Below, one piece after another: positions 1-62,680 of a DNA stretch of 64,000 nucleotides. The DNA lies in contig NC_079164.1 in NCBI RefSeq assembly GCF_947568905.1, positions 83,948,001 to 84,012,000 on the forward strand, written 5' to 3'. Both the position numbers and the translations under genes were made by a program. Source of the DNA: Ostrea edulis (taxonomy: Eukaryota). How positions within the stretch are numbered: the first letter of the stretch is position 1; each line of letters begins with the position of its first letter. The notes under the pieces were generated by a model that saw only the letters and a list, made by a program, of their open reading frames with translations, had not been told where the DNA came from and did no database searches.

Positions 1-293
1 GAGTAAAATACAGAGTTATCTGTTGGTTTCCTTTTTTACAAAAGAAAATAGGATTGCAATTTACACGATTTATATATCATATGTGAAAGGTTAAAAATAC
101 ATTTCTCTATTAATGTGTAACACATTTCAAACATAGAAATATGAAACATTTTTATCAACAAATCGCTCTCTAAACAATTTTGAATTACTGGTAACAATAT
201 GGATAATACAAATTTAAATACAGATACTTTATCAGCATGCTTTACTGTACTTTAGGATTAACTCTGAACAATCCTATAAATCTGGATGCCTAC

Positions 294-31600: not shown

Positions 31601-34600
31601 CTTTAAAAAATAAGTTGGCAACAGCTACTAGCCAAGAGGCCTGGTACAATGAAGAGATTGCTCAACTTCAGACGATGAGGAAACAAGACTCAGATATACA
31701 GGAAATGTTGAAAGAGGAAGTCATCAGGTTACAAAGAAAGGTGAGTTTTGATACAGATAAAATTTAATGTTGTTGTGATGAAAGTTTCAGTGCACTGGAA
31801 AACTTTTACCCCAGTGGGCAGCTTCTAAACTGAGCAAATTTGAATTTACTCATTACCCTAATGTAGTAAATGGTTTAGAGGAAATTTTAAAGGGAAACAA
31901 AATTGTTTTTCAGTATGCCCAAGCAAAAATAACAGGGGTAGGTGTGTGTGTGAGTTGGGGAGGGGGTGTTTTCCTTGATATACAGTAATAGGCTACTTTA
32001 AAAACCACAGCTGAAGTTACAGTATACTGCTAATTTGAAATTTGAGTTATATGTAATGGCCTTCAGTAAGGGTCACTGACACTCTAAACCTTGAGAAAAA
32101 AGGGAAAGTTGTCAGATCAGCTTGTTTAGAAATGTCTGTTGTTTAACAGGTACAAAGTGTAAAGTTTTCCTTGAAATCACATGTACACGCTAAAATACAC
32201 AAAAAAAAAATGTACTTCCAACATGTCCAAATACTGTGTACCCGGTCAGACTCTGATTTATTATTTAAACTAAACATGCTAAAGCAAGCAAATTTTGACT
32301 AACAAAAAAACCCACTATGCATATAGTTGACTCAATGACTGCAAGTTGACAAAAATAATGAATATTATGATGTTAAATAGTGTTGAATAATCGGGAAAAT
32401 TTCATAATCGATAATCGGTCAAAATCGGAAGAACTAGATCGATCAATGATCGATATAATCGGTATTTACATATAGTTAATAAATGTTTATTATTTTTGGG
32501 TTATTTCCTTTTAGTTTTATGGATATGTGCAACATACACACATCTATTAGCTTATTTACGAGGAATGAAATGGGTTTTTTTTTTTAAGCCATGACATCCA
32601 GATTGGCTTTAGTTTAGTTTTAAGAAACCTTAAAGTTTTCAGACGTCCGACTTTGGTTTCCATGGGTAGGGATATATATCAAGTTATCAACTAATCCGAG
32701 ATTCCTCCTACTCTTACCCCGCTTTTATATCGTGACATGTGTGGGAGAGAGTCAGAGCGGACTCTATAATGAAAAGTGGGAATTCAGCGACACCAGCTAA
32801 TGTCGCTGCATTACCTACGTAATATAAAAGCGGGGATAAGAGTCGGGGGAATCTCGAATTATTTATCAACTTCATTATTATTGAGTTGATTTCAATATCC
32901 AGGACGACGACGATGATGATATCTAAAGCCTTCCTTTTCAATGTGTTGATTGATATATACATAGTTGATTTGTTTATAATGGGCTTGTGTTTGGGCGACA
33001 ATCGATTATGAAAAATGGAATCGATAATCGGAATCGACGAGACAAAAACGATAGACAATCGTTTCATCACTAATATTAAGTATGATAAGCTTGAAATTTT
33101 CAGATTAAAAACACATGTAACTGTTTGTGGGATTGTTTGGAGGGCATGGTGCTGTAAATGGGCCAGCTAATATTATTATACCCCCCGCAACAAGGTGGGG
33201 GGGGGGGGGGGTATACTGGAATCGGGTTGTCTGTCTGTCCGTCCGTCCGTCTGTAGACGCAATGGTTTCCGGGCACTAAAGCATTATCCTTTCCACCTAC
33301 CGTCACCATATCATATATATGGACTACCCATGGGATGAAGATGTTCCCTATCGATTTTGGGGTCAAAAGGTCAAAGGTCACGCGCACTGGACATCGAAGT
33401 AGCAATATGGTTTCCATTTAAATTCTTTAACGGCTTTTTCATCGCATGGAGATGCTGTGTTCCTAGATAATTCATTTCTCCCTACAAACGAGAATACCCA
33501 AGGTTTGTCATGCCATTTGTTTTTTACACTCAGAAAAGAGGTAGTTTATACCTATTACCAACACCCTTTGGGAGATTGGGGTAAGCGGGGGGTATTCTTA
33601 GTGATCATTGCTCACAGTACCTCTTGTTATAAATGAAATCTGATAGTGCACAGTAAGTAGGACTATATGATTCAAAGGTTATTATGATAATTCCTGTGTG
33701 TGATATACATTCAATAATCAACTCCAGATAGGGAATTTGGAAGAAGATATTGATCAGCGCAAGTCAACAGAGTCTAACTTGAAATCCCAGATTCAGTCTC
33801 TTGAGAAGTTAGCAGAGAGCAACAAAACTATAAATGAAACCTTGTCTCACAGCATAATGACGGAGGATAACTCACAGCTGATGAATGAACTGGGTTCTCT
33901 GCAGACTGAAAACGTAAGGACCGAATATTTATTACTTAAAAAACGGGTGGGAAAATCCACAATTACCAAACAGCTTTATGTGATATGTATCAATTGAACT
34001 GTAAGTACTGCCATTTTTTTATTGAATTTTTTATATAGTCAACATGCTTGAAATTGACATGTATGCCCAAAATTAACTCTTGATGGCAGCCACAGCAGAT
34101 TTAGATATGTAAATTTTAATAATTTGATGCTGCAAGTGATTTAAAACTTTAAACACAGAATAAGCGCCATGCAGTAACACTAAATCCGACAGGTAGTAAT
34201 AGACATCTGTCAACAATATCATAGTATTTGTGTTTTAGACAATAAATGATACCTGTAATTGTGTAATCTTTGTAGACCCAGCTAAAAGGTGAAATCATTG
34301 AAATTAGGCATGAACTACAAAGTGCAGCAATTGAACTGGAGAATGCGAAACAAAAGCTGGTACACAAGGACCGAGAGTTGGAGGAACTTCAGTGCCAAAT
34401 AACCACCTATGTCAACACTATAGAAGTATGCCTGGCATTTCTATTGTAGTGGTTTTATTGTTGATTTCTTTCTATCATTATAGTTTTGAAGTTTCAAAAA
34501 CCTAAATTTCTGGAAATATTTTTTTTTTCCTTTTAGAAATGTAGGACAGAAAACATTGAACTGAATACACAGATCGATGTTTTACAAATGGAATCTCAAA

Positions 34601-37600
34601 GCCAATCTTGCAAAGGAAATTCTTTATTTTCAGAGGTACTGTATTTTATTTTATTTTAAATAAAGAAAGAAATAATACCCTTGCATGTATTTGATTGACT
34701 GTGTCTGAAATTAGCTTGATTCTGAATTTAAAGTTTATATGTAAACCAGGTTGAGGATAGAAGGATAAAAGCCGAGAAGTTGGTGAAAAAATACCAACTC
34801 TCCAGTCAGCAACTGAATCAACAGAATCATAAATTGAAGGTAAATGTAACTCTTAATAGTAGAGAAAGACTTGTTCATTGATGATTAATATGCACATGAA
34901 ATTAGACATGAAAATTTGCTTCCTTGTTTGGAAAGTACTGTAGACCAGTCTATCATGGGCTTTGTAAGTTTTTCAAATTTACACACATAAATGATGTGAA
35001 ATTTGTCGGTAGTATCTTCCTTTTCTAAAATTCTAACTATTCTTGGTGCAATTTTTTTCTTTTATTTAGATCATTTTATATTTCAAAGAAAGTCCTCTTC
35101 TTTTGCCTCATCAAGTATTGTGGTGCTTTCAACACTTCTTAAAATGCAGAGGGGAGAGAATAAGGGTTTTTGAGAAGTCATCATGGACAAAAATGTTGAT
35201 CATTATACATGTATAGTAACCCAGATCAGTTCTGACATATGCCATAATATTCCAAGTTCCCATCTTTGCTTACTGAAGATGAAGGCCATAAAGTTCATGA
35301 AAATGATTTTTTCTTTGGGGGGGGGGGGGCAAAATTGGCAAATTTGAAGTATGGATGGCTTCAGAAAATATATGTGCCTATCGGCTATCTCTCAAACTTG
35401 CATAATTTATACATCTGTTTTTAGCTTTGGCATAAATCTGGTACATACACAAACATTTGCTCTGTTTATTCTACAACAAAATGTATGAAATTAAAAAAAA
35501 AAAATGCCATATTTTACTGAAAACCTTAATTTGTTCAAATTTGAGACAACTTTGTGACTTAAGACACCTACATGCATGATCGTGAATATATATTTTTACT
35601 AAGACTTCATCTTGATGTAAGTTTTACTGTACTAGGTTTCATGGTTTTAAGTCTATTTTGAAATTTAAGTGAAAATGGAGGCTACATGGGGTCCTTATTC
35701 TACCTTATATGAATTGTTAATTCTTGATAAATTCCAAATTTTGCAGAAAAGTTGATGGGAGACAATTACCAATATTAGCAAGGTCTTGGGATTGGAAAGC
35801 CTGGCTGTAGTTTATGTTTAGTTCCCAATATTTTTGGATTTTATTGTGTTTCACATTTTTCAGATATCAATATTTTGTTCTGTTACTGATAGATTTGATT
35901 TTTTTTAAAGTGTAACATTTCATTTATAGATGCAGCTCTTTACTTGTATGGGCCTCAATAAAGAGAGATCTGATGATGACCGCATTGAGAAACTTCAGAG
36001 TGAAGTGTATCAACTTCAAGAACAGAACAAACAACTCCTGGAACAAATTCACAGTTCTCCCAAATCAGAGGTAGCACCCACTTAATAAGGATGGATTTCA
36101 ATTTCAAAACGTATCAGTACTTATTTTGGCAGAGTTTTGATTCACAATATTTTGTGCTAACCTTGTTAATTAATATCAAATATTAATTAATTAATAATAC
36201 ATATTTTTGTTCCCCCTGCAACGCGGAAGGGGGCATAGAAATACCTGTGTCTGTGCGTCCCACTTGACTTTGTGGACACATCTCCTCTGAAACCACTCAA
36301 CAGATTTTGTTCAAATTTTTTAGGATTGTTAGTCACAATATGTAGTTGATGATATTGTGCCGCTAATGTAATTGGACAAATTTTACAGGAGTTATGGGAC
36401 TTTGTTGAATTTGTACATTCTACAATATATAAGAGGTTGTGGACGCAACTCCTCAGAAACCACTGAACAGATTTTGTAGGATTGTTAGACACAATATTTA
36501 GTTGATCATTTTCCACCGCAATTTTGACACAACAAATGTTACAGGAATTATGGGACTTTCGTGCTTCAACTTTTTTTGGCGATGTTGTGGGACATATAGC
36601 TCCATGTAGCAATATTGTACTATCTTTTCATGCAGAATTAGACCACACAAGTGTGTTTATCATAATGAATATTGTTTCTATTTGTTTTATAGTGATTTTA
36701 ATTTCTGTAAACAAGGTTTTGAATCTTTTCAGGCAGTGCTTACTGGAGATGTTGAGGGTATATTGAAAGAAGGAGCGGTCAGTTCTGGAGAGGAGTATGT
36801 GAAATACCTACTTAGCATTATCAAAGCAAACAAGTGAGTGCTGGTATACTTGACGCTGATTACAATTGCTTGTTACAAAACAACGGTGATATTGTATGTG
36901 TTGAAATACAAAGATAAGATCGCTTATTTATGATAATGATCAGAAATTGTAATTCCCGCAGCATTTGTAAATATAGATAGTGTATAGTGGTATAATAAGT
37001 TGTACATGCTGACAATCTGTGATCTTTGTAGTGATGAAGTATCAAAACTTAAAAATGAAGTCAAGGCACAAAAGCTGCTCCTGTTAGCTGAGAAAGACAC
37101 AGTTTTGTCCCTGGAAAGGAAGCATTATGACATTGATACTCAGAGGGAAAAAACAAGGGCTTTGTATGTAAAAGAAAAAATGAAGGTGGAAGAACTCAGA
37201 GCAAAATATGAACCTGGTAAGTTTATTGTAGTATAACTGTAAAAAGTCTCTTTACACATGTGATAAACATGAAATTATCGGGGCTGATGAATTTTTTTGC
37301 TGTAAGATTTATTCAGAGTGTAAAACCCCTTTCACACATTCACGGATGAGATGCTGGATTATCCCGGATTGTTGATCTGTGATGATCTGTGACAATCCGC
37401 CATCACCATGTACAATTGTGCATGCATTTGGCGTAGTCCTGGACAATTCGACTTGGCTAAGCCAAACCGTGAAAAAAATGATACTTGTTTAATTTTTACC
37501 CCGGATCGTCCCGGAAGAAAATCCTCCATATTGATCCATGTAGGTACTGTGTACCACTGTGTATCAACTGAGATGTCCATGTATCAACCAAGAAGTCCGT

Positions 37601-40576
37601 GTAGCCACCTTAGTAACCGTGTAAAGCCCGGGATCAGCCAAGTACAAAATTTTTCTGCTGAAGAACATGGATGTCTACGGTCTGTACACGGATTGTTCCC
37701 AGTAACTACACGGACAGACACGATAAATGCAGGGAAGACAGACCATGATAATCCGTGTATCTCTGTGATACAACTGTGGATGGACCGGCAGAAACCGTGA
37801 TCTTCCATATGCTCTGTGATCATGCTGGCACCGATCGGGATTTTTCCCCGGGACATACGGGTAGCTACCATGCTTATCCATAGAGAAACCAGTGTTTTCC
37901 GTGTCTGCATTGTGATAAGACCGTGTTGACACCGGCATTACGTCGGATCACCTCAAATGACTAGAATTTTGCATCCGGTGTTGACCAGCTCCTGATCCGT
38001 GAATGTGAAAGGGGCTTTATTGATGCAATTTGCACATGTGCAGAAATTTTCAGCAAAATATATAAATGCAATGAGTTTGCAATTTTATTGCCACATTTAT
38101 AAACCAAAATGCTGTGATGCCTAAATTTTAACCTCGTATGTAAATTAACGCCATCAAACTCAGTTGCTATGTGTAGACAAATGTAACTATGACGTCATAG
38201 TCATACGTCACAATATGAAACGCGAGCTTTTAAATGCATCTAAGATATTATATACATGTACATCTAAGGTATTCTACCACTATCTATTCCATGTATATGT
38301 TTATGTATTAGAGTGAATAAGATGTCAATGATACCAAAACTGAATCTGTGGTGAAAATCTAAAGAATGCTTTATACAGGGATTCGGTTCTAGCCTTTTAA
38401 GGTAATTCCATCCCACTAGAATTATAGGTTCAATCTTATATTTGATTGTTAATTCTTCAAATAAAATATCTTGGTAACAAATAAAAATGATAAAATAAGT
38501 ATGTTGCAGTATTGATAATTTTTTTATCAATTAGCACCCATATACTTGTTATCAACGTCAGAAAATGCAATTTTCCTTAAACAGCATTATCAAAATTTCA
38601 CAAAAACTGGTTAAAATGATATGAAAGTACATGTATTCATAACAATTTCATGAAACTGTTTCTTTAAAAAAATATACAAACTGTTTGTGAAAAATAAAGA
38701 AAATCTATCAGATAATGGAATTGATAAATGATTTTATTGAAAACAGCTATTGCCCTTGGATTCAATATTTTGAAACATATAATTGATTTTTCATATATAA
38801 CGTAGACTTTTGAAATATTTTATGGTTAACAAGATTTTTTACAATTACTATTGAAAAGACTCTAACAAAATTTATGTTCCTGTCAACATAAATCTGATTC
38901 AATCATTGACTTTGTGAAATCTATGACATCACAGGAGGTTGGAATTACATTAACTTCAGGCACAGCGAAGAAATGCAGCAATTTGATGCAATTCTTGTGC
39001 TGATCCACGTCCGAGTCTTCTTATCGGTAACGGAAAAAGATGAGCGTGTGATCCGATTGGGGCATATACATACATTTCTTGTTTGTAAAACACATTTGAT
39101 TAAATATTCCTGGTAAATGTTTTGCCCTCAATAATTATTTCCTCCACACTTTCTTAATCTTCTTCAAACTACCATAAATCCCTTTGAGATAAAAAAAAAC
39201 TGACATGAAAATCTAAGAAACTATGGAAAGATCATGGGACATTTAATTAATAAGAATGTAAGGAAAGTATAATTGTTATATTTAGAGAGTACACATAACA
39301 TGATCCATTTTTTGTTGTACATATATCATCAAGTTACATGAAGTTGTATTGGTAATTTTTCTGTGCATTTAATAAACATGTAACTTGCACATTATCTTTG
39401 TTGTGGCACTAATCCACAAACTTTTCTTATTATCCTCATGTGTTATTAAAATTTTAAGAAATTTAAAAATAAAAAGATTTGCATTGTACTAGTGGTGTTC
39501 TTATCATCGATTATAATCGAAAATCAGTCGATTGTTGGCAAATTCTAAGTGCTCGATTAGGAAAATTTTATTCCAAATAAGCGTTTTTAGATTTTGTTTT
39601 CTCAAGGACTGTAGGATTTGAAGAATATTCCCGCTGTGACCTATCTATTAACTTAAAAGTTTTGTTTATTGTAATGGCGACGCACATGAAAGCGAAAGTA
39701 TTCATACCCGGGAAAATCGTATTGACTTTTATAAATGTAATTAAAGGATATTAAGATAGTAAATGAATAACAAACACAAACAGAAAATATTCATTTACAC
39801 AATCTCTGCAATAAATTATATTGGTTGTTTCAACCAATATAAATGTAGAAAATATTTTTTCAGTAGTTAAATGACTTGCATTATAGAATTTCTCTATGTC
39901 CAATTATCTCACCGATTCCCATCACTACATTGTAGATACTTTCACTTTATAGGAACTATCTTCCTTGTAGTATACTAGTATAGTATTACATGTATATGTA
40001 GTAAATTCAATGAAATACTTGCATCTATCATCAATCTGAAGATTGTTTTCAGGTACATAACCAATTATATTTTGATTCAACAAGTTCTCAATATTAAACA
40101 CAGTTAAATTCAATATATTATTAACTGTGACAGATTGATTATTTGTTGCAGAGAAAATGAAGAATGAGACTGGTACAAAAAGGGGCAAGCTAGAAAAGTT
40201 AACTTCAGGGACTGAAAACTCCATAAAGGAAGCAAAATGTGAGAAAAAAAGAAAAGAGAGTTCCAGAGCAGTGAAAGAACTTTACATGGATGAGAGTACA
40301 GCCAACACTGAGAATATAGAACCAGAGTTAGACACAACAGAGAAGAAAACAGAAAGTGAAATAGAATACAAAAAAACGAAATCGGTTTCTCTGAGTGATG
40401 AAATTAAGATGTTAGATACTGAGGGTAGGGAAGAAATTGGTTCGTTGTCAGAGAAAGATCATTTTCAAAGGTCAGGTTCGTATGACAAACCAGCAAAAAG
40501 TAAAGGTCGTAGGGTCACCAATATTGTCAAAGCTGAGATACCAGATTCCAAAGTGAATGAATGTTCACCGCAGTGA
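28644..40576 (+). CDS. SPDL1: Spindly (dynein-dynactin kinetochore adaptor)
   Basis: Exons 31579-31740, 33728-33913, 34276-34425, 34537-34635, 34750-34839, 35930-36070, 36733-36833, 37032-37216 and 40152-40576 are phase-compatible. Coiled coil, Spindly motif KGNSLFSE|VEDRR, ELRAKYEPE, C-terminal CaaX CSPQ. First coding exon 28644-28661 (MMDETE) is tentative. Confidence 0.88.
28840..29280 (+). pseudogene. 3' fragment of a LINE ORF2 (C-terminal Cys/His region)
   Basis: LSSHNLEITVERGRH..RICKLC / NSNNIENETHFL..CKCYE, interrupted by a SINE. Confidence 0.65.
28930..29034 (-). mobile_element. Short tRNA-derived SINE inserted in the LINE fragment
   Basis: GGTAGAGC A-box and GGTTCGAATCCC B-box on the minus strand, 8-nt anticodon-like loop, non-tRNA 3' tail ending TGTTACA. 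Confidence 0.75.
29463..29865. mobile_element. MITE (CAGTGA termini)
   Basis: TIR cagtgattttt / aaaattcactg; internal ttcccaatt motifs as in 7948-8333. Confidence 0.55.
31272..31335 (+). mobile_element. Degenerate tRNA-like SINE head
   Basis: ggtagcgcagtggttaaagc A-box and gagttcaaatccc B-box; acceptor stem does not pair. Confidence 0.45.
32378..33072. mobile_element. hAT-like MITE
   Basis: Termini TAGTGTTGAA / TTTCATCACTA, subterminal AATCG repeats, degenerate 8-bp flanks (atgttaaa / atattaag). Confidence 0.6.
32692..32861. mobile_element. Mutator-like MITE nested in the hAT-like MITE
   Basis: About 40-bp TIRs; 9-bp flanks gttatcaac / tttatcaac. Confidence 0.65.
33172..33629 (-). mobile_element. 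Pearl/HINE-like element
   Basis: ttattatacccccc..gggggtata hairpin end, (GTCT/GTCC)n microsatellite, ggtcaaaggtca core. Confidence 0.7.
36203..36600 (-). mobile_element. Pearl/HINE-like element, same family as 4950-5356
   Basis: Reverse-complement similarity (aattttacaggagttatgggacttt), terminal hairpin and T-run. Confidence 0.65.
37324..38016. mobile_element. PIF/Harbinger-like MITE
   Basis: About 22-bp TIRs (cccctttcac..attcacggat), TAA/TTA flanks, GC-richer interior. Source of the spurious ORFs at 37359-37938. Confidence 0.65.
38401..38949. mobile_element. TTAA-flanked MITE, second copy of 2345-2898
   Basis: Reverse-complement similarity along its length; TTAA at 38397-38400 and 38950-38953. 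Confidence 0.7.
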
Positions 40577-41398: not shown

Positions 41399-41867
41399 TG
41401 TGCACATGTCATTCTCTGCTCCTCATGTATATAAAGACCAAAATTTTCAATGTATAGTTGCTTTATATATGCATGTGTGTATACTGGGGGAGGGGGGGGG
41501 GGTATAAGTTTGGTTTCTATGATGTCAGGTATATATGTATTAGACGTGTATCAATATGGCATTAGTTATATTGATCGTAGGTCTGTATGATCTGCATATT
41601 GTCAGTATGATGTTGATATTATAACTTGTATATATCAATAATCTGGAATGATTGTCAGTCTGACATAAGTTTAAAGGTGTTTTAACCCTCATTATTTTAG
41701 TAATTTTCATTTGTTATTTTTATACAGTTAATGAACGAGTTCATACACTAGGTCTTGTGATTTTCAACTTGAAAATAAAACTAAATGTACCACTATGACA
41801 AAATAAACAGTTCAACAAAAAACTCAACAATGTTAAGTTATTAAAATGATGAAAATTGTAGTGTGAT

Positions 41868-43265
41868 ACACATTCACGTTTGTATCATGGTGAGGTAGTA
41901 TGTTCTCTGGACCCACATTCACGTTTGTATCATAGTGAGGTAGCTATGTTCTCTGGACCCACATTCACGTTTGTATCATGATGAGGTAGCTATACTCTCT
42001 GGACCCACATTCACGTTTGTATCATGGTGAGGTAGCTATGCTCTCTGGACCCACATTCACGTTTGTATCATGGTGAGGTAGCTATGCTCTCTGGATCCAC
42101 ATTCACGTTTGTATCATAGTGAGGTAGCTATACTCTCTGGATCCACATTCACGTTTGTATCATAGTGAGGTAGCTATGTTCTCTGGACCCACATTCACGT
42201 TTGTATCATGATGAGGTAGCTATACTCTCTGGACCCACATTCACGTTTGTATCATGGTGAGGTAGCTATGCTCTCTGGACCCACATTCACGTTTGTATCA
42301 TGGTGAGGTAGCTATGCTCTCTGGATCCACATTCACGTTTGTATCATAGTGAGGTAGCTATACTCTCTGGATCCACATTCACGTTTGTATCATAGTGAGG
42401 TTGCTATGCTCTTTGGATCCACATTCACGTTTGTATCATAGTGAGCTAGATATCTTCTCTGGACCCACATTCACGTTTGTATCATGGTGAGGTAGCTATG
42501 CTCTCTGGATCCACATTCACGTTTGTATCATGGTGAGGTAGCTATACTCTCTGGACCCATATTCACGTTTGTATCATGGTGAGGTAGCTATGCTCTCTGG
42601 ACCCATATTCACGTTTGTATCATAGTGAGGTAGCTATACTCTCTGGACCTACATTCACGTTTGTATCATGGTGAGGTAGTTATATTATCTGGACCAACAT
42701 TCACATCTCTATCATGGTGAGGTAGCTATGCTCTCTGGACCCACATTCACGTCTGTATCATGGTGAGGTAGCTATGCTCTCTGGACCCATATTCACGTTT
42801 GTATCATAGTGAGGTAGCTATGCTCTCTGGACCCACATTCACGTTTGTATCATGGTGAGGTAGCTATGCTCTCTGGACCCACATTCACGTTTGTATCATG
42901 GTGAGGTAGCTATACTCTCTGGACCCACATTCACGTTTGTATCGTGGTGAGGTAGCTATGCTCTCTGGACCCACATTCACGTTTGTATCATGTTGAGGTA
43001 GATATGTTCTCTGGACCCACATTCACGTTTGTATCATGGTGAGGTAGCTATGCTCTCTGGACCCACATTCACGTTTGTATCATGGTGAGGTAGCTATGCT
43101 CTCTGGACCCACATTCACGTTTGTATCATGTTGAGGTAGATATGTTCTCTGGACCCACATTCACGTTTGTATCATGGTGAGGTAGCTATACTCTCTGAAC
43201 CCACATTCACGTTTGTATCATAGTGAGGTAGCTATACTCTCTGGACCCACATTCACGTTTGAATC
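41868..43265 (+). repeat. Homogeneous 46-bp minisatellite, about 30 copies, with higher-order blocks
   Basis: Unit ggacccacattcacgtttgtatcatggtgaggtagctatgctctct. Confidence 0.95.
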
Positions 43266-44584
43266 ACATGTTTTTGAATATGAATGAAAAGTTTACAATA
43301 TGAATAACAATTTATTGAATAAAAATAACATGTTTTTGAATATGAATGATAAAATTATCGAATATGAATAACAACTTTTCGAATATGAATGATATGCTTT
43401 AGAATATAAATTACAAATATGAATAACAAGATTAGTATAATAGTGCAACGTTTTACACGCCATACTGACAATGGTTGTTTTTTTTTCTCTGTAGTTTTAC
43501 GTACAGTATATCGAAGACGTATATAACGCACAAATGTCTCCGAGTGAACCTGACAAAATTTTGCACTCTTAAAAAGTGAAATTTGTCAGCAACTTGCCTT
43601 GTGTCGTTCAAATTGTGCATAACCTTAATAGAAGCACATCTAGTTGGAACTGGTGGTTCTTACTTTTTCTCACTACCAGAAGACGTACGTTTATAATGAT
43701 TTTCTCTCAGCGTTGTTGACTAGTCCGTTAGAATTTATTATCAGCGAGCTGAACACAGCTTGTCAAGAATGCCAAAAATAAATTTTATGTTTTTGTCTCC
43801 TTTTAAGTCCAGTCAAAACAATGTAAATAGCAGAAAGACAAACACGCGTGATGTTATTAGGTACATCGGTAATTGTAAATTTCTAGAAATGAGGGGGATA
43901 ACGAATTGTTTGCGAAGATTAAATGCAAAGGTCATTTATTTTTTTCTGCTCAGTTGAATTATAAAATGAAAATTAACCACGCAACCAGGGAAATCCTCAC
44001 ATTAAGGGACTTCTTGTTCAAATAGTATCATATACAGATTGGTATCTAGAAAAATTATCAGGGTGAATATACTTAACCTGGGCTTAAACCCTTGGGATTG
44101 TTCCTGTGTCTACATTACAATGTTCTATACATACAACCTTAGGTCAAAGCTCAAAAGAATCAATTTTAAAATGTAGGATTGGTCCAAGCTTGCAAGTTTT
44201 TTTCTTTTTCCTGACTACCGGTACCTGTTGAAAAATGGTTCAAATTTCAACGACTATGGGCTAGATTTTCAACGTTAATTGCGCTGCCCAAGTCGTTTTC
44301 AACGGTGTCAAAATTTTACGCTACAATGGCACAACCCTCCAAAGCAGTGTCACGGCCTTTTATTTTGCTAACTTTTTCAAAACAAAATGTTTTAATTAGG
44401 TGATTTGAATACAAATTCCATAAAAGTCTCATGAATCCTGAAAATTATACATTCACAAAGCATTTTTGTCAATATTTGAATGAGTGTTTATAAAAAATAA
44501 GAAATTTCGTGCCTTTCGTCAGCGTACGCTGAGTACATGTATACCAAGACCGATATGTCTTTACTTGAGAAATAAATTCCATTT

Positions 44585-44696: not shown

Positions 44697-46092
44697 ACAC
44701 ATTCTACGTTCATATTGAAAACGCATTTAGAGGTTTTCAGCATCTTAGATGCAACGATGAAATTCCACAAGCTCTACGCATCATGCTGAATTAAACTATC
44801 TACACACTTGTCCAAATAGTTTAACAAACATCACCGATACAATCAGATGGTGTTAAACTCAAAACCTTTTAACCCTTTCTCGCTCAAGTATTTGCCCATC
44901 AAGTGGCTTGGAAAGCCACTGTGCGTAAACTGATGTTCGATCGAATGTTGAGTCTCAGACCAAGTTTCCCCAGGTGATACATGTATTTCACATCATTTAT
45001 CGATCATCTTCAATACTTATAAGTTATCACAAAATCTTGGCTCTGGGGATCAGTTGGTCACATCTTGAGCTTGCTTGCAGAGGAGGAATAGCCGCGCACT
45101 GACCTCTAACCGCCAGATAAAGGACAATCATATATATGTGCCTACATTTCTTCAGGACAATTTTAAAAATATTTAGGCTCTCTATCGATAGGTAGAACAA
45201 ATGTTGAACATACCTGTACAGACTAGATAAGATTTTCGGTGCATATTTAGCATTGGCATCTGATAACATGTGTAAAATTCGGCGTGGTAGGAACAACCGC
45301 TTTGTAAAACATTGTTTTCCAATCATTAAAACCATTTCAAACAGAAATAGACAACTATAAAAATAAAACACACTGCAAAACAAAGTTCGTGAAGGATTTT
45401 GAATTATTTGTTTACTTTTAGAGGCTATTGAGAATTTGTTTCCTCAATTTCTGAATGTTTTAAAACTAGCATTTTCAAGAAATTGATTACACTGAAATAC
45501 ACTAGATTAAATGGTCACTTCATAAAGATGCAGAAGGGCCATTGCATCGGTTCTAGTTGCATGAAAATGATGTGTCTGGTAACGGAATGGATGAAGTCCA
45601 ACAAAACGGTTTTACAATAGACAAATGTCTCGAAATTCGAAATGTCCATGTATACAACAAAACACGTCAGCAATTTTGGCCAATGAAAAGACCTATTTCC
45701 ACCAACTAGTATACATCACAAAAATATCCATGGTTTCGGATTATGTTATTCAAATAAAACATTCAATTAATGTTCTTATTTACTGGTCGAACGAATGGAA
45801 AAAAGTAAATTTTTGTTGCGGACCGGAAAATCTTAGTTAAACGATGCCCAAGAACAAGGTAGCCTGCAATAAAGCGTTTAAAATGTCACCTCGAGACCAA
45901 GGTATCACGTAGTAACACGCGTTCTTCATTTGTCAATTACTCATTACATCCATTTTGTGTTTTCTGGAAATGTTCGAATGTTGTTCTTGTAAATCGTACA
46001 CGTACCGGAGCGCTCTTTACCACTACAACCATATTTACCAAACTATATAAACCCCCAAATTCATACATAAAATTATCCTTGTATTTGTTGCC

Positions 46093-46206
46093 ATGGAAAC
46101 TTGGGTCCAGTATATGGTACAGGCAGTAGCCATAGTGGCTATCCTTCTGGATGCCGTGTATGGTCAATCCAGCGATGATCCAGCCTCCTGGGATGAATGG
46201 AACTAA
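46093..46206 (+). CDS. Small secreted peptide precursor A (37 aa): METWVQYMVQAVAIVAILLDAVYG-QSSDDPASWDEWN
   Basis: TATATAAA 46044-51, gccATG context, hydrophobic signal-like N-terminus ending VYG, AATAAA near 46385. Aligns with precursor B. Confidence 0.65.
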   Translation: METWVQYMVQAVAIVAILLDAVYGQSSDDPASWDEWN

Positions 46207-46701
46207 AGGTCAAGGTTTATTGTGGGCACAAAGGTGGGGGTGATTTTTAAAGTTGAAGATCGTAAATTCCAGCGATAGAGTTACTAACAATGGTAATGGC
46301 GGTGCAGGTTTGCTTTCCTTACTGTGCATTTCTAAAAATATATCAAGTTATCGTTCAACAAGTTTGATACTCACGAGGCATTTTAATAAAACATTTCTAA
46401 GAAATCCGAATTCACCGTGAGCGGTAACCCTATATTTGGGCGATTTATCGACAGCCAGACATAAAGACCGTGAAACAACAAAACATGCAACATAAAAGGA
46501 ACTTCCTAAACTATGACACAAACTGTTTCCGCGTTATTTCAAATATTCTTGTTTAACAACTTCCCAAAACATCCTACGTAGTACGTTTTTTACGTTGTTT
46601 TGAACCGTGTGAGACTATATAAGCTAAACTCCGACTGTTGGTCTTCACTCAACGTTCAAACGCAGAGTCCTCCACTTCAAGTAGTAACTATAGCAACAAA
46701 G

Positions 46702-46851
46702 ATGGAGTCAGTCCGCCAATATATCTACCAGGCCGCTACCTTTGCCATGGTGGTCATGCTTCAAGCGGCGTTTGCCCAGTACCAAGATGACAACAACGGT
46801 GGCGATTTCTTGTACGGTCCATACCGCTACATCAACAGATATGGTTACTAA
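46702..46851 (+). CDS. Small secreted peptide precursor B (49 aa): MESVRQYIYQAATFAMVVMLQAAFA-QYQDDNNGGDFLYGPYRYINRYGY
   Basis: TATATAA 46616-22, aagATGg context, signal-like segment ending AFA, Tyr/Gly/Asp-rich mature part. Paralogous to A. Confidence 0.7.
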   Translation: MESVRQYIYQAATFAMVVMLQAAFAQYQDDNNGGDFLYGPYRYINRYGY

Positions 46852-47502
46852 GGTAAACGCGTTTCGAAACTTTGGTATGACGTCACTATTTCTCACCGCT
46901 GTCTCCTAAATACATTTTGCTAAATTACATTGGAGGATATTTTCTCTCTCTCTAAATTTTTGTTGTTTAAAAGTTAAATCCAAAATTAAGTTTTAAAATT
47001 TATTTCTTATAATTTGAATAGCAAGAGGGAAAAAAATCAATACGGTTGACAATATTATTTATAAAAGACTAGCGATACTCCTAGCAAACGACAATTTTCC
47101 TTATGACTGTTCTGGGTTTTTAATCGCATTATTTAAGGGCCAGGTCTTGTTCATGCACCGGATATCAATCATAAATCCACAATTTCCTTTTGATCTAGTT
47201 TATTTAACAGAAAAGGTACCAAACTCATACCAGAAACACGCGTTTAAAATCAGAATTGTCGCGTTTTTTGACGAAAAACATGGAAAAAAACCCAACACAA
47301 CAAATTTGCTTTCTTTTGAAATTTATGAAAAACTATTCAATTTACACACCGCAGATTTGTAAAGTAGAACGGACATTTCCTGGAAATCATTCTTTCATCA
47401 AAATTTCCATATAAAAACTCGTCAGTATCGTGAATGTTTGCACAGTGCCAAAGATACATATACTAAAGTGTGCGCAAGAGATTTTGGTGATAGTGAAACG
47501 CC

Positions 47503-47854
47503 ATGTTCAGACCCCTGCTCATATTTGCTCTGTGCCTGGCTTTTGTGGTTTTAACATCAGGCTTATCATTAGACGAGGGAGCTTACTACATGGGGAGGAA
47601 TGAAAACGGTCGGCATTTCGTTCTCTAGTTAGAATAGTTCATACAAATTATCTGTCGATTAATTTCTAAAAGACGGAGCATTGAATTTTATTTTTTAGAC
47701 TTTATAATAACGTTTACTATGTTGTAACAATTACTTCAATATATTTCTAAAAGTATTGAACTCTACCATGTCTTTAGTGTAGCTTGTTTTATTTTCAGGA
47801 TATGACGATTGTTATTGGGCCGGTGACGAATGGACATGTGGTAATGGATACTAG
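47503..47854 (+). CDS. Small secreted peptide precursor C (53 aa if spliced): MFRPLLIFALCLAFVVLTSG-LSLDEGAYYMGRNENGYDDCYWAGDEWTCGNGY
   Basis: TATAAAA 47410-16, gccATG, classic signal peptide. Exon 47503-47608 (donor AACG|gtcggc) joins exon 47799-47854 (acceptor tttattttcag) in phase 1. AATAAA near 47968. Unspliced it would be 41 aa ending at 47628. Confidence 0.65.
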
Positions 47855-48655
47855 TCAACAAATTAGAACCATCTCATCTTGTAGTACCAAATTCCGGACA
47901 TCAATCAGAAAATACATGTTGGCAACCAAATATTTTGTTGTATGCATTCAAATTGTATCTCGTGGTCAATAAACAATCGTTGCTTCCTATCACTTGTATT
48001 TGTTTGGGTTTTGTTTTCAAGTTATTCTATTGAATAATCGAACGGACAGGAGACAAGTTATTTCACCTTACTAGCTCCTACCCCAACATTTCATAATTTG
48101 GAAATATGATTGGGGTCGTGATATATGATATTGGTAAAAGTTTTCGATTAAACTCGAGATGTCTCGAAAAATGGTATTCATTTGCCGTTTAATGGATATC
48201 AAGTTGAGTTTACATGTATTGACATTATACTCTAGCTGTTCCTGACTGCTAAGTAAAGTAGGAGATGCTTGGGTTTTCTAAAAGTATATTACTTTGCTAC
48301 AAGGAATGTGCACATTCTGTATACACATGGAGTCACAAAGTTTTTACGTGGAATTCAAAAAGATGAAATTTCGTTTCTAAATGGAATAGATTTTCATGGA
48401 GAGGTAAAATCATGCCCATAAAACCGCATAACCGCGAAGATGGTTGTAGCCGCTGACGCACTAATATTTCAGTACTTGTTGGTACCATTTTTTGGGAGGT
48501 ATCTTTTTCATAGGTCCAATCTTGTTAAAAAAACCTAAAAGCTAATTAAATTCATATTTTAATATGTTATAAAAATATCTCAAAGAAACTGCAACATTGT
48601 TCATAAGCACATCAGTCATGTACAGTATATACAAAATGTACCGTAGTGAATGATC

Positions 48656-51600
48656 TTAAAAAGCGTCTACATTTTTATGCGAAATTTTGGCCCTTTTTAA
48701 GAGAGATCTGAACGCTCTGGGCACACTGCAGTGGACTGAGAAACTCCTGCCATCTAGAAATTCTGGAATCATGATGAATTTGGCGTGGATGTACATTGGC
48801 AGGTTGCGAGTCTTGCTCTGTCTGATTCCAAGTCGTCTGACTACGTCACTAGGGAGAATCTGCGGATGTAAAACACAGGGTTTAAGAGACAATTATCAAT
48901 GGTATGTGGTATTACCTCTTTTCTTGAGTTTTTTGTTGGTCAATCATGTACTTGTGCTTTACAGGCCGTTGTATGTATCGTGTAACTAATAAATGTATTT
49001 GTTTTCTAACTTTATATATATTTCTTTCTAATAAAACTATCTTGGGATTGCCAATTTGTCATAATGAAAAAGTTCGAAACTTTATTAAATATTAGTATGA
49101 AAATTATTTTGAAATTTGTCAGAGAACAAAATTCGGACCATATAGTTTCAAATATTACGTAACAGATGTTTAAATAGTACCTGTATTTTTCAATTTGGGG
49201 TTCAAAATGCATTGTACTATTATTCGATAATAATAAACTAGTCACCTGCGGTTTGATTTCACTCAGGTAGGAATATTTGTGGTCTCCCAACACCGGGGTT
49301 TTCAGCACATGAAGGAGATGTGTTCGTATCTGATGTTTCACACCTATTAAAACATGTATACAGAAACTATTTCATATGTTTTGTGGGATATTCTGAAAGT
49401 AAAGTGCTGGGAAAATATTTACTGTAATAGAAACAATAAAAAGACAAATATCCCTCACATTCAAGTAAATTAAACATGCATGGTCTATGAAAACATTGGG
49501 AGAAATATACTGTACATTCACTACATGTACCTATACATACATAGCTTACAACAACAAATAGGACCACGGGTCATAACGCCCGCCAGACTTTCAGCCAGGT
49601 TTCTTACCGAAGTGCTTTAATCGGCATCGCAAAATGTCAACCATTGTAGTAAGCATGATTGATTGATTGTATATTGTTTAACGTCCCTCTCGAGAATTTT
49701 TCACTCACATGGAGACGTCACCACTGCCGGTGAAGAGCTGCAAAATTTAGGCACAGGGAGGGATCTTGATCGTGCCAAACCTGCTGTGACACGTGACCTC
49801 GGTTTTTATGGTCTCATCAGAAGGACCACCCCATTTAGTTGTCTCATACGACAAGCAAGGGGTACTGAGGACCTATTCTAACCCAGATCCTCACAATTAT
49901 GAGAGTTCGTGTATATTACTAGTGAATTTCACACACTGCAGATTTGTTGATGTTGAAAAGAAAATATAAGAAACTTTTCTACAACCTACTGGGGATGGTT
50001 GTCGGGATTTTCTCCGGCTTACACAGTTATGACCTCCTTATATAAACAAAACCAGATAGAGGACTCCTATTGGAAATAAGTTCTAAAGAGTTTTTACAGG
50101 TTACATGTATCCCAGCTAGCATTTACTATCTAAGCCGAATAAAGATTTATTTTACTCGGAGAACATGCATATTTCATTGTAAAGTATCTGGGTCTTACTG
50201 TTGTGTGTCACGCGAATTAAACCCCGGATATTTTTGCTTGAAAATACAATGGAGTCTACAGTCGCACTACACAGTGATGCTTCAGATAGGTAAACCATAC
50301 AAAATTTCTTTGTAATGTATATATCAATATATATTATGGGTAGCAATAAAGATCTATTGGATGGTTTGTGTGAATTGCATACAAAATACATGTATATAAA
50401 AATTGTACATAATGCATTTATCACTTTTAACACACATCGGTGCACGTACGTTGTATCGAATATTTCAATGACACAAAACAATCTGCTTATTGTTTCAATG
50501 GTTTGACAGTATCCACACAATGCTACATTTATACGCTGTATTAAGCAATATAATAACAATGGAACAATGTATATATTATATTGAACTGAATTTGAACGTT
50601 CCTAAATTTCCTACAAACGGAGACAAGAGAGTGGGACAAGTAGGATCGCCAGCTTATTGGGCGGTATACATTTTCGATGGACATTATAAATTCTCCACAT
50701 CGAGGACCTATTGCTATAGTATTACCACGAACAGTTCTAGACAAAAAAGCGGTCACTTTATGGTAGACAGTGGGCATCATATTGCAGAGGCAAGCAGCCA
50801 TGCCATCACTTCGGATACTCAAGAAGTGGTACCACAAACAGACAGTCTGGTGATATTGAACATACAGAATCTGGTGAAAATTTACGACGTAGGATCCGGT
50901 AGTGACGTCGGCGAGATTCACGCGCAGTATCTCCTCGACAACGTACTGACGGGCACCAGAAAATCCTTACAGACAAATCTAGCTCGTAATGACAGAAGTG
51001 ATTGGAGGGATGGAACAAATACGTTCCAAAACTTACAGGCTAGATGTCAATATTTTGTTTTCGTAAAATACACCGCCATTTTCTTTATCATGTTTTAACA
51101 ATTCAGTAATTTAACATAAGGATTTCATTTCATTTTCAGATTTCCGCAGGCGTTGGAGAATTTAAGAGTGAAAAGGCAATCGTTGGAACCCTAGAGTGAG
51201 AAAACAATGCAATAATGCACTTATTATTTTGTTCCTATCCGGATTTATTTTATATTTTGCTTTAGCATACAAGAAAAGTTTACTTTCTACTTTTATATAA
51301 CAGGAATATTCAATGGACAAATCGAGTGGAGGAAATCGACACGAAGATTTCTTTTCTATCATCAGTGGTGAGAGAATGAAATATGTTTGTTTTCACATTT
51401 TTATTTTCTTCTTCTGATAAATGCACTTGGATTAACCTTAGGCAAACGGAAAAAAGTCAAACTCAAAGGTCATGAGATCAAAAAATTTTGGTATTAGAAG
51501 AAAGGTCTTGTCACTGGAATATCACCATCCATTCAAACGTTATGATCAAAGGTAATTTCTTAGGAACAAATAGACAAACGACTAACAAAACACTATGCTC

Positions 51601-55400: not shown

Positions 55401-58400
55401 ATCATAAAATGGTAATACTTATACAATTTTCTGTAATAAACACTCAAGAAACAAAGTATATTTTCATTTTGTGTACAGAAATTATCATTAAATTTGATGC
55501 TAAATACTTATTTATTCCTGTTTATGCATTTGTTTACATACATGTTATTTCATATCTCTCTACATGTATATCTATTCAAAGGATTCTCAAGATACTGAGC
55601 AAACACTATCTATGGCCAAAGTAGTTTAGTAGTTTGACCATTGACCTTGTGACCTCAAAATCAATAGGAGTCATCTATTCTTTACCTAGAACCTGTGTAC
55701 CGAGTTTGATATCTGTCAAGAAAAGGGTTCTCAAGATATTGTACACACAATATCTTACTATGTCCAGTTTGACCCTAAACCTTTGACCTTGTCACCTAAA
55801 TCTAAATATGGGTCATCTAATTCTTAGGAGGAACTAGTGTACCTAGTTTGATGTTTTTCAAGCAAAGAGTTCTCGATATGTTGAGTGGACAATATCTTAC
55901 TTGTCTAGTTGGACGTTTGACATTAAAACTGATAAGGTTCATCTACTCCATAAGTAGAACCAGTTTACCAAATTCACTGTTAGTTAAGCAAAGGGTTCTC
56001 AAGATATTGAAAAGATAATATCTTACAATGTTCAGTTTGACTATTGACCTTTGACCTTATAATCAATAAAGGTCATCTACTCTCTAGGAACAACCACTGT
56101 ACCAAGTTTGGTAACTGTCAAGCATTTAGGATACTTTAGATACCAAGTGAACAATACTTGGTCTCTAGACTGACCAACCTTTGACCATGTGACCTGAAAA
56201 TCAATCGGGGTTCATCTATTTTCTTGGGGCAACAACTGTACCAAGTTTGGTAACTGTCAAGCAAGGGGTTCTTTATTGAAAAGACAAGACTGCATCTACA
56301 GACCGATCAACAGGTGCAAAACAGCATGCTCCCTCTTTTTCAAAGGGGGGAAGGGCACAAAAATAGATTTCATTTTTAAAAATACATGAGGGTATGAACT
56401 GCGATGCTTTACGTCGATATAATTCATGAAGCGTGTTAATTAAATAATAAAATGCTTTCTTTGTTATTTTATCAGGTGATGAAGATAGCTAGCATTGCAG
56501 AAAAATTCATAACCCGCATAGGGTTATAAAAAAATTTCTGCAATGATTGCTACCTTCATCACTCAATAAAACAACAATGAAAGACATTTTATTGTTTTAA
56601 TATATTTTCACGTATTTTTTAAAAATATAAACTAGATCTAAGTACTGATATATCATATCATGGACCATTTCGTTACTTTTAAACAGAACAGCCAATGCAA
56701 CTTTTTACTTTGACAATGCTCCATATTTTGTAATCATTATGCAGGAAGGTGGTACTAAAAACTGGATCTAACTAGTTTGCAACAAACATGTATTCATTTT
56801 CTATGATGAATGCAATGTCAATTTCAACAGAAATATAAGAGAAAAGATTCAGTGAATGTAAATAATGCTTCATAAAAAGTATGCCATTGTGAAGCCTTGC
56901 AGTTCATACCCTCATGTGTTTTTCAAAAATAAAATTTATTTCTTAAAGGGACTGATTCACAATTTCACCCCAAATTTTGAGTTTATTATTTGTTGTGTAA
57001 ACAAAGATTTGGGTATATTATTGATTACAAAGTTTTCAAAATAAATAGATATCGAATTAAGTTTATCATGTTTACCACATGTCAAGTATTCTTTAGCTAA
57101 AATGTGTCATTTAATATCTTCATTCTACATTATATCAAAATGCTTTTTAAAAATTACAACATTAATATTTCACTGGTTGTTTGTCAACATAAAAGACTTG
57201 AGTCTTTGTTTACATAACACATAGTTTAAGGCTAAAATATTGCTTTTATCCTTGCATTCAGAAGGTCCAAAGAACTGCAAACGATAGTATTCTTTCACCA
57301 TCTACCTTCTTAATTTTTAAAAGTTATAATTTTAAAATTATTTTTAATGTCAATATAGATATTTATATGAATTTTCATAAAAGTGAATTTATGACAAAAC
57401 AAAGAGAGATAACTCTATAATTTGGGTTAAAATCACATATTTCACTAGAAATCAATGGAAAATATTTTAAAATTCCTTTTCACAGGTGTTATAAATTGTC
57501 ATTTAGCAAATTTACACATAAACATTTGTTGTTTTGGGGGGGAGGGGGGGGGGGCATATGTTTACAGACCAAACATGTCAAAAATGCTCTTTCTTTGATC
57601 AACTGTAAATGAGGTTAAACTATGAAAAATTAAGATGAATCATTTCTTACTCAATAATGTAAAGTAATTTAACAATTTAAATGGTTATCTATTTATATCA
57701 ATATGTATTTTAAAATATATTACATTTTAAAGCCTGATTTCAAGGAACAGATTTTTTTTTATCCCCTAATAAAAAGGAATTGTAATTACTTTGCATTAAA
57801 AAAAATCTCATTAGCAAAACTGTAAAGCTTTTTAAAAAGTTAATAATGTAGGCAGGAATCCAGAGTTAACGTGCATAGTTATATGCAACATTAAATGAAT
57901 TATATGGTAATTGTTTTTAAAACATAAAAAAAAAAAGTGAACCATACCCTTTGAATGGATAAAAAATATAAATACAAAGTGACTGGGGAATTGTTGCACT
58001 GCATAAATTGCATACAAACTTACCCGTTTTTTCCTGTCTTTTCCAACCTCTCCCTCACCAATAGGTACATCAATAATGCCTATCAAAACACAAAATTTTC
58101 AAATGTTCTAGAACTACCAAAATTCTTTGAAATGAGAGCAGTGCTGAAATTAAACTGATGAAATATTTACCTTCCTTGATAGATGGGATTCCCTTTGTAA
58201 TGACTAAGTATGTCTTCTTCACTTCTCGGTTCTTGAATGCTTTTCTCAGTTTATTAGCCATTTCTTCAGTTCTATAATTCATGGTAATAAATGAATATGC
58301 TATATAAATGTCCTTCTTGAAGTACATATTTCAAACACTTATAGAATCAGAAAACTAGCAGCGACAAGGGTAAACTATATACAAAATTCAATTGAGCAGA

Positions 58401-62199: not shown

Positions 62200-62680
62200 T
62201 GCGTTTCATGACATTCAACAGCTGTTCAACAACTAACTAAACCACTAGAACTTATCACCTTCAACATATTGTAATTCCTAAATAGCACAAAGATTGGCTA
62301 AATATCAAAATAAACCGTTTGAACCTCTAGAAATGAAAAATTCCTGCGAGTTTGTCGGTGCTTTTTTTTTCTTTCTTTTCTGTCAACGACATGTCTACTC
62401 TATGGAGGCTGCCATATTGAAAATCTTGTTAACTCGATCGGGAAGGTATAATTTTATTTTTCAAATCTAAACAGTTAAAAATAAAAATAATCCCCTCTAA
62501 AAGATAGAAAATGACAATGAGATGATTATGAAATTTTTTATAACAAGATTATGATGATCAGAACCGTGGATGTCTAACAAGTTTACACTATACCGAATGA
62601 ATAAAGTACGAATTAATAATAAAATCTACTTTCACTTTGGACGCTTGTGTGCATTCGTGTGTATACATTTGAATGACAAT
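62200..62680. promoter_or_regulatory. Putative bidirectional promoter RPUSD4/FANCL
   Basis: Only about 480 bp between divergent start codons; YY1-like gctgccatattg near 62409. Confidence 0.55.

What the first reader, a model, noticed from the sequence alone, without database searches (positions are those of the whole stretch)
46093..46851. Precursors A and B are paralogs with conserved leader and unrelated mature peptides
Seen: METWVQYMVQAVAI-VAILLDAVYGQSSDD aligns with MESVRQYIYQAATFAMVVMLQAAFAQYQDD (ME, QY, QA, L, A, Q and DD shared), after which the sequences diverge completely. Known: a conserved signal with a hypervariable mature region typifies toxin, antimicrobial and pheromone families. 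Inference: a duplicated, rapidly diversifying peptide family with predicted pyroglutamyl N-termini (Q-x-x-D-D).
Basis: partly seen in the sequence, partly recalled or inferred. Interest (0 to 1): 0.7.

Follow-up and report, generated by a model that had tools for sequence, protein, structure and literature searches.

The report
Two overlooked oyster secreted-peptide genes
Two neighbouring tiny genes in an oyster-type genome share a related leader sequence, both have counterparts in other sequence sets, and one is made into a spliced RNA; they are predicted to release short acidic, aromatic peptides that likely work in shell or other extracellular matrix, and they look like an old, stable pair rather than a fast-changing toxin or defence family.

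Summary
The alignment is real. ORF A (46093-46206, 37 aa) and ORF B (46702-46851, 49 aa) share 11 of 29 aligned residues; 1 of 20,000 shuffles scored as high, and profile-profile E = 9.6e-6. Both have the same TATA 8-mer, a good start context and a predicted signal peptide. B is spliced in 5 of 5 RNA-type runs laid and polyadenylated in 2. Both genes have homologues in public collections, and an A-type tail is joined to the same upstream neighbour exon in a Magallana gigas gene model. The 'rapidly diversifying family' reading mostly fails. Four genome-wide motif scans and a 464-kb profile scan found only these two copies. B's mature peptide is as conserved as its leader (60/71 vs 64/75). No coding variants appeared in the runs laid. 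One B homologue lacks the N-terminal Gln. Only A's mature part is moderately fast (6/13 identical). The peptides are anionic, have no cysteine and carry no amidation or dibasic signal. They most resemble, by composition only, pearl-oyster shell peptides (LICP, prismin, Prismalin-14). That function is inferred and untested; tissue is unknown. Verdict: a real, unnamed, probably unannotated two-gene family of moderate interest.

The parts
46043..46050 (+). TATA box of gene A (CTATATAA), about 50 nt upstream of the ATG
   Evidence: the same element reads through in the upstream extension of A homologues P0014/P0017, in a different frame from the ATG in the window, so conserved non-coding sequence
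46093..46206 (+). ORF A, 37-aa precursor, start context GCC-ATG-G
   Evidence: 37-aa homologues P0009-P0011 at 59-62% identity and an M. gigas tail in P0016
46093..46164 (+). Predicted signal peptide of A (24 aa, cleavage after V-Y-G)
   Evidence: 9-residue hydropathy peak 3.38 and (-3,-1) rule applied in script; no SignalP available; inferred
46165..46203 (+). Predicted mature peptide A: 13 aa, net charge -4, two Trp, no Cys, about 1.5 kDa
   Evidence: Q1, S2, D4, D5 and W9 kept in all A-type homologues
46385..46390 (+). AATAAA, candidate polyadenylation signal of A
   Evidence: sequence only; use not shown
46615..46622 (+). TATA box of gene B (CTATATAA, same 8-mer as A)
46662..46852 (+). Exon 1 of B, holding the whole CDS (5' end at or before 46662)
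   Evidence: contigs of RNA-type runs X1, X2, X3, X6, X7 with no other letters in the listed pieces
46702..46851 (+). ORF B, 49-aa precursor, first ATG of the transcript, context AAG-ATG-G
   Evidence: homologues P0002, P0003, P0013 at 78-88% identity
46702..46776 (+). Predicted signal peptide of B (25 aa, A-F-A cleavage site)
   Evidence: inferred
46777..46848 (+). Predicted mature peptide B: 24 aa, acidic N-terminal half, Tyr/Gly/Arg C-terminal half (6 Tyr, 4 Gly), net -1, no Cys, about 2.95 kDa
46853..47798 (+). 946-nt GT-AG intron of B, starting 1 nt after the stop codon
   Evidence: joint in 5 of 5 RNA-type runs laid and in 0 of 3 presumed DNA runs
47799..47992 (+). Exon 2 of B (3' UTR), AATAAA at 47968, poly(A) added at 47992
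   Evidence: poly(A) loose end in X1 and X2, both of one study

Best explanation
A and B are two neighbouring small genes with related leaders, likely from one old tandem duplication, whose products are predicted to be cut by signal peptidase into short acidic, aromatic peptides that likely act in the oyster's extracellular mineral or matrix. Shown: the two ORFs, their leader similarity, the shared TATA element, homologues of each with the mature part kept, and spliced, polyadenylated RNA for B. Inferred mechanism: (1) each gene is transcribed from its own TATA promoter; (2) the 24-25-residue leader directs secretion and is removed with no propeptide step; (3) the exposed Gln is usually cyclised to pyroglutamate, which protects the N-terminus; (4) the shared D-D plus a further Asp/Glu binds Ca2+ or a calcium-carbonate face; (5) the tails give different jobs: A (13 aa, Trp/Tyr) as an LICP-like crystal-surface peptide, and B (24 aa, Tyr/Gly/Arg tail) as a linker to chitin or to the tanned matrix, like a miniature Prismalin-14 or KRMP GY region. 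The split between the two tails is old and each is now kept by selection, B strongly and A more loosely. My odds are about 0.9 for the gene anatomy and paralogy and about 0.45 for the matrix function.
For: Paralogy. Motif L-x-A-x-[YF]-[GA]-Q-x-x-D-D occurs 2 times in 895 Mb, at A and B, control 0 (the pattern was built from A and B). Coding status of A: equal-length homologues with 17/24 leader and 6/13 (10/13 similar) mature identity; an indel upstream of the ATG but none in the CDS; M. gigas model P0016 joins the A-type tail to the homologue of window exon 31543-31764 (46/58 identical), which points to synteny. Expression of B. Chemistry: net -1 to -4, 0 Cys, 0 dibasic sites, no C-terminal Gly in all 7 mature peptides examined. 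Literature analogies: LICP is a 10-residue pGlu peptide whose acidic and Tyr residues bind aragonite (PMC13080008, passages); prismin 1/2 are about 4 kDa with acidic C-termini (PMC9808598, passage); the Prismalin-14 GY region binds chitin, and pGlu after the signal recurs in shell proteins (PMC3821031, passages); the KRMP-3 Gly/Tyr region binds chitin (PMC4498902, abstract).
Against: Nothing here ties either gene to mantle or shell: the tissue of the RNA runs is not given and no proteomics was available. Similarity to LICP is not above shuffles (459 to 2,879 of 5,000 reached the score in 10 tests). No Pfam family and no meaningful PDB match (1 hit, E 3.8). The case for function rests on composition, and acidic aromatic peptides also serve as hormones, cues or inhibitors (recalled). 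The Gln at +1 is missing in P0013. Transcription of A is not shown. The species of all homologues except P0016 are unknown, so the age of the duplication is inferred, not dated. The signal peptides come from a simple rule, not SignalP.
Confidence: 0.45

Rival explanations
1. Signalling peptides (hormone, paracrine factor, or spawning or settlement cue): one pGlu peptide straight after the signal, possibly Tyr-sulfated at the D-Y and Y-Q-D-D sites, acting on receptors.
For: Short, linear, N-terminally blocked if pGlu forms, and B is strongly conserved (83-88% mature identity), as receptor ligands tend to be. Oyster shell matrix proteins have been reported as settlement cues (PMC9456362, search listing only).
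Against: No dibasic sites, no amidation Gly and no associated peptide in 7 of 7 mature peptides; A and B tails share nothing beyond D-D; loss of Gln in P0013; no Pfam hit.
Confidence: 0.2
2. One reading: a fast-diversifying defence family (antimicrobial or toxin-like) with a conserved signal and hypervariable mature peptide, like mussel myticalins or CRP-I.
For: Shared leader with unrelated tails; A's mature part is faster than a neighbouring exon (p = 0.03); small secreted, Cys-free form as in myticalins.
Against: Two copies only, against at least 67 loci for MgCRP-I (PMC4558851, passage). Anionic, whereas myticalins are cationic with a C-terminal propeptide and vary between individuals (PMC5577615, abstract). 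No Cys. B leader and mature equally conserved. No coding differences in the 8 runs laid (contigs drop rare variants and one DNA run may be the assembly's source). Leader identity between A and B is only 8/24.
Confidence: 0.12
3. Uncleaved single-pass membrane micropeptides with a short acidic luminal tail that regulate a membrane pump or channel (sarcolamban/sarcolipin type, recalled).
For: The leader is unusually conserved for a signal peptide (19-23 of 25 among B homologues), and B has a long uncharged stretch.
Against: Best 19-residue hydropathy is only 1.3-1.8, with Gln and Asp inside the segment, and a (-3,-1) site at the same place in 7 of 7 proteins.
Confidence: 0.08
4. A is not an independent gene: it is a silent relic, or an alternative last exon of the upstream coiled-coil gene as the M. 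gigas model A0A8W8K5B2 draws it.
For: P0016 joins the upstream exon to A's leader at a C-A-G inside codon 10.
Against: Start Met, the residues before that site, ORF length and the TATA element are conserved in other homologues. The supposed acceptor has no pyrimidine tract in the window. The upstream gene appears to have further exon-like frames at 33704-40576.
Confidence: 0.1

Closest known systems
LICP, ligament intracrystalline peptide of Pinctada fucata (PMC13080008, passages read)
   Same: Very short secreted peptide with N-terminal pGlu, about three acidic residues and two or more aromatic residues, no Cys. This is the design of mature A.
   Different: Sequence similarity is not above shuffles. 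A is 13 aa and Trp-based. The LICP precursor and leader could not be compared (2015 paper not seen). No evidence that A is in ligament or mineral.
Prismalin-14 and KRMP Gly/Tyr regions (PMC3821031 and PMC13080008 passages; PMC4498902 abstract; PMC3191542 passages)
   Same: Signal followed by Gln (pGlu in Prismalin-14) and a Gly/Tyr-rich tail linked to chitin binding or quinone tanning. This is the design of mature B.
   Different: B is only 24 aa, has no Cys/Lys domain (KRMP) and no repeats. The original Prismalin-14 paper was not held, so no sequence test was made.
Prismin 1/2 of Pinctada fucata (PMC9808598, passage)
   Same: A two-member family of about 4-kDa shell polypeptides with an acidic end.
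   Different: The acidic end is C-terminal in prismins and N-terminal here. Prismin sequences were not seen.
Myticalins and MgCRP-I of Mytilus (PMC5577615 abstract; PMC4558851 passages)
   Same: Small secreted bivalve precursors with leader similarity and divergent mature parts.
   Different: Those are multigene, cationic, propeptide-bearing and variable between individuals; CRP-I has six Cys and positive selection. A and B are two copies, anionic, without propeptide or Cys, and B is conserved.

Membership tests
Hypervariable toxin/AMP superfamily (myticalin or MgCRP-I type) | Many paralogues per genome | tested here: not met
   2 copies. Four motif scans gave 3, 2, 9 and 7 hits, of which only A and B have a leader-type ORF. 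No third copy in 464 kb. Copies that lost all four motifs would be missed.
Hypervariable toxin/AMP superfamily (myticalin or MgCRP-I type) | Mature region much more variable than the signal among homologues | tested here: inconclusive
   Not met for B (60/71 vs 64/75, p = 1.0). A shows a trend only (6/13 vs 17/24, p = 0.17).
Hypervariable toxin/AMP superfamily (myticalin or MgCRP-I type) | Cationic mature peptide, propeptide with dibasic site, or Cys framework | tested here: not met
   Net -1 to -4, 0 Cys, 0 dibasic sites in 7 of 7 mature peptides.
Hypervariable toxin/AMP superfamily (myticalin or MgCRP-I type) | Sequence variation between individuals | tested here: inconclusive
   No coding difference in the 8 runs laid; the only two differences near the genes, at 46259 and 47228, are non-coding. 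A was covered by 3 presumed DNA runs only, contigs drop rare variants, and one run may be the assembly's source.
Hypervariable toxin/AMP superfamily (myticalin or MgCRP-I type) | Positive selection on mature codons | not testable with these tools
   No DNA of the homologues could be obtained; the metagenome scan gave one chance bacterial match.
LICP | Sequence homology of the mature peptide | tested here: not met
   Not above shuffles in 10 of 10 tests.
LICP | N-terminal pGlu with acidic and aromatic residues in a peptide under 15 aa | tested here: inconclusive
   Composition met for A. pGlu is predicted from the cleavage rule only.
LICP | Located inside ligament aragonite and binds its surface | not testable with these tools
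   Needs MS and binding assays.
Prismalin-14 / prismin / KRMP shell matrix proteins | Sequence homology to family members | not tested
None appeared among the 9 hits of the profile word search or the 2 hits of the representative search.
Prismalin-14 / prismin / KRMP shell matrix proteins | Gly/Tyr-rich region | tested here: met
   B-type mature peptides have 5-7 Tyr and 4-5 Gly in 23-25 residues; the region is short.
Prismalin-14 / prismin / KRMP shell matrix proteins | Mantle expression and presence in shell | not testable with these tools
   The tissue of the runs is not given.
Classical neuropeptide precursor | Dibasic cleavage sites, amidation Gly or associated peptide (criteria recalled) | tested here: not met
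   None in 7 of 7.

The most novel reading that the evidence does not exclude
A and B are oyster-specific shell peptides that have been invisible because ORFs under 50 codons are missing from reference proteomes: a duplicated promoter-leader-D-D cassette that carries two different tails, one to steer crystal faces (A) and one to tie mineral to chitin or tanned matrix (B). They would be the first true-oyster counterparts of LICP and prismin, and candidates for control of foliated calcite, chalk or ligament aragonite.
Probability: 0.25. Interest if true: 0.6.

Novelty: new member of a known kind. Interest (0 to 1): 0.36.

Why it matters
Neither peptide has a name, a Pfam family or a correct reference record in what was searched. 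B-type clusters come only from Logan, ENA and JGI gene calls, and the one UniRef record with an A-type tail is probably a chimeric model. Six diagnostic 7-9-residue strings gave 0 papers in the library, and a search for oyster micropeptides gave nothing relevant; subscription journals and supplements were not covered. If they are shell or ligament peptides, they give two cheap, synthesisable molecules (13 and 24 residues) for testing how true oysters control their mineral, and they show a blind spot in shell proteomics. If not, they are still two conserved secreted micropeptides to add to oyster annotation. The finding does not support a new hypervariable toxin or immune family.

Tried and rejected
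RNA cover of A: none in 5 of 5 RNA-type runs laid. Those runs were found through B's words and are contigs, so this shows neither silence nor a different tissue. The extra motif hits (1, 7 and 5) have stops or no hydrophobic leader and were rejected as chance. ORF C (47503-47628), signal-like with a TATAAAA at 47410: no similarity to A or B (2,119 and 10,181 of 20,000 shuffles), inside B's intron, not in the protein collection; rejected as a family member. Metagenome scan with P0013: 1 locus, L044, a bacterial chance match. P0012 (292 aa, NCBI) sits in the P0009 cluster but is unrelated; left out. P0005 was left out of the alignments (altered N-terminus), and P0014/P0017 are upstream-extended calls of the same A homologue. 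LICP homology was not above chance. Pfam: nothing for A or B types. PDB: one hit at E 3.8. ESM Atlas gave no result. Earlier scan findings: none. Structure prediction was not run because 13-24-residue linear peptides give no usable model.

Full report
Observation. The window holds two short + strand ORFs 609 nt apart: A at 46093-46206 (37 aa) and B at 46702-46851 (49 aa). It was reached by 1 of 20,000 full shuffles and 8 of 20,000 segment-wise shuffles; leaders alone, 39 of 20,000; mature parts alone, 12,343 of 20,000. Among 4,823 ATG-started frames in 464 kb, only A, B and their internal ATGs scored 40 or more against either leader. Profiles built separately for the two types align at E 9.6e-6. 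Cross-scoring beat all 3,000 shuffles for 3 of 5 targets, with 4 of 3,000 for A and 116 of 3,000 for P0013. Paralogy is therefore well supported, but the leaders are only 8 of 24 identical.

Host and setting. The genome is 894.8 Mb in 52 contigs. A window exon at 31543-31764 is 46/58 identical to a Magallana gigas protein (Ostreidae), so the host is inferred to be an oyster; I did not identify it further. Neighbours are a coiled-coil gene upstream, and a pseudouridine-synthase-domain gene (minus strand) and FANCL downstream.

Gene anatomy. Both ORFs have the 8-mer CTATATAA upstream (46043, 46615), a purine at -3 and G at +4, and an AATAAA downstream (46385, 47968). Of 11 runs listed, 8 were laid. 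All 5 RNA-type runs (3 studies; for 3 of them RNA is the tool's guess) carry a contig that joins B exon 1 to 47799 across a 946-nt GT-AG intron beginning 1 nt after the stop. Two runs of one study end in poly(A) at 47992. The 3 presumed DNA runs show no such joint. B's ORF starts at the first ATG of that RNA. Transcription of A was not shown.

Homologues. B has three further 90% clusters: P0002, P0003 (200 contigs) and P0013, at 78-88% identity. A has 37-aa homologues P0009-P0011 at 59-62%, found by an HMMER pass over 1.84 billion representatives that gave 2 hits in all, plus P0014, P0015, P0017 and the tail of M. gigas UniRef A0A8W8K5B2. That M. gigas model joins the upstream coiled-coil exon to A's leader. 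This points to conserved synteny and is probably a prediction error: the joint falls at a C-A-G with no pyrimidine tract in the window, while the Met, the first nine residues and the TATA element are conserved elsewhere. Upstream of A's ATG the homologous sequence is out of frame, whereas the CDS has no indel, as expected for a real ORF. Only P0016 carries a species name, so the number of species is unknown. No correct named record was returned for either type.

Is it rapidly diversifying? For B, leader identity to three homologues is 22/25, 23/25 and 19/25, and mature identity is 20/24, 21/24 and 19/23; pooled p = 1.0 (the pairs share one reference). For A it is 16-17/24 versus 6/13 (10/13 similar), p = 0.17. 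Against M. gigas, A's mature part (6/13) is less conserved than the neighbouring exon (46/58), p = 0.03. So A is moderately fast and B is not. Copy number: four genome-wide motif scans gave 3, 2, 9 and 7 hits; only A and B have a leader-type ORF. A profile scan of 464 kb found no third copy. The motifs were built from A and B, so copies that lost them would be missed. No coding difference appeared in the runs laid; the two differences near the genes are non-coding, with the caveats that contigs drop rare variants and one DNA run may be the assembly's source. By contrast MgCRP-I has at least 67 loci with positive selection (PMC4558851, passages), and myticalins are cationic, carry a propeptide and vary between individuals (PMC5577615, abstract).

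Predicted products. A (-3,-1) signal-peptidase site (rule recalled) falls at the same place in 7 of 7 proteins, after a moderately hydrophobic core whose best 19-residue mean is 1.3-1.8; weaker alternative sites exist. Mature A is 13 aa with net -4 (-3 in homologues) and 2-3 aromatic residues. Mature B is 23-25 aa with net -1 to -2, an acidic first half and a Tyr/Gly/Arg second half. None has Cys, a dibasic site or a C-terminal Gly. Gln at +1 would allow pyroglutamate, but P0013 would start with Phe, so D-D is the more constant element.

Mechanism (inferred). The closest designs I could document are pearl-oyster shell peptides. LICP is 10 residues with pGlu, and its carboxyl and Tyr side chains lie on aragonite (PMC13080008, passages). 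Prismins are about 4 kDa with an acidic end (PMC9808598, passage). Prismalin-14 and KRMP-3 have Gly/Tyr regions that bind chitin (PMC3821031, passages; PMC4498902, abstract), and such regions are also linked to quinone tanning (PMC3191542, passages). PMC7591529 (passages) only lists these proteins. I therefore propose secretion, N-terminal blocking, Ca2+/mineral binding through the acidic start, and tail-specific roles: crystal face for A, matrix link for B. This is analogy, not membership: LICP similarity is at chance in 10 of 10 tests; the Prismalin-14 paper was not held; the LICP 2015 and prismin 2010 papers and all supplements were not seen, and they could show whether the leaders are related. 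Nothing here gives a tissue. Odds: matrix 0.45, signalling 0.2, defence 0.12, A not independent 0.1, membrane micropeptide 0.08.

Novelty. No Pfam family, no meaningful PDB match, 0 papers for six diagnostic strings, nothing relevant for oyster micropeptides and no earlier finding. It is a new, unnamed two-gene family of a known kind, small secreted acidic peptides. It is real and testable, but it is not the hypervariable family proposed. Interest 0.36.

Noticed in passing
window 31543-31764 (+) and P0016 (UniRef A0A8W8K5B2): The M. gigas model joins the homologue of this coiled-coil exon to the A-type leader tail and mature peptide. Probably a chimeric gene model, but useful as a synteny marker.
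   Followed up: partly
window 46204-46216 and 46849-46860: Both stop codons are followed within 1-2 nt by AAG/GT. In B it is the used donor. In A a weaker look-alike could be a relic of the duplication, or let A splice to a downstream exon; no such joint was seen.
   Followed up: partly
window 46787-46852 plus 47799 onward (+): The spliced B RNA also holds a longer overlapping frame of 79 codons from the fourth ATG. It could mislead annotation; its conservation was not tested.
   Followed up: no
window 47503-47628 (+): A 41-aa ORF with a signal-like N-terminus and TATAAAA at 47410, inside B's intron. Unrelated to A or B and not in the protein collection; probably chance.
   Followed up: partly
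window 48614-49345 (-) and 58073-58330 (-): A spliced minus-strand transcript whose covered part reaches about 620 nt from B's poly(A) site; it may be the 3' end of the pseudouridine-synthase-domain gene (PF00849, E 2e-5, below cut-off).
   Followed up: partly
window 62558-63802 (+): FANCL encoded in one 414-codon open frame with all four Pfam domains, apparently intronless and lying beside or within the minus-strand gene; possibly a retrocopy.
   Followed up: no
window 261-506 (-): Proteasome subunit exon (PF00227).
   Followed up: no
window 41761-43394 and 20916-21686: Tandem arrays of 46-nt and 48-nt units; a dispersed repeat at about 49656-49894 is very abundant in RNA-type contigs.
   Followed up: no
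P0012: An unrelated 292-aa NCBI protein is filed in the 37-aa P0009 cluster, which looks like a clustering error in the collection.
   Followed up: no
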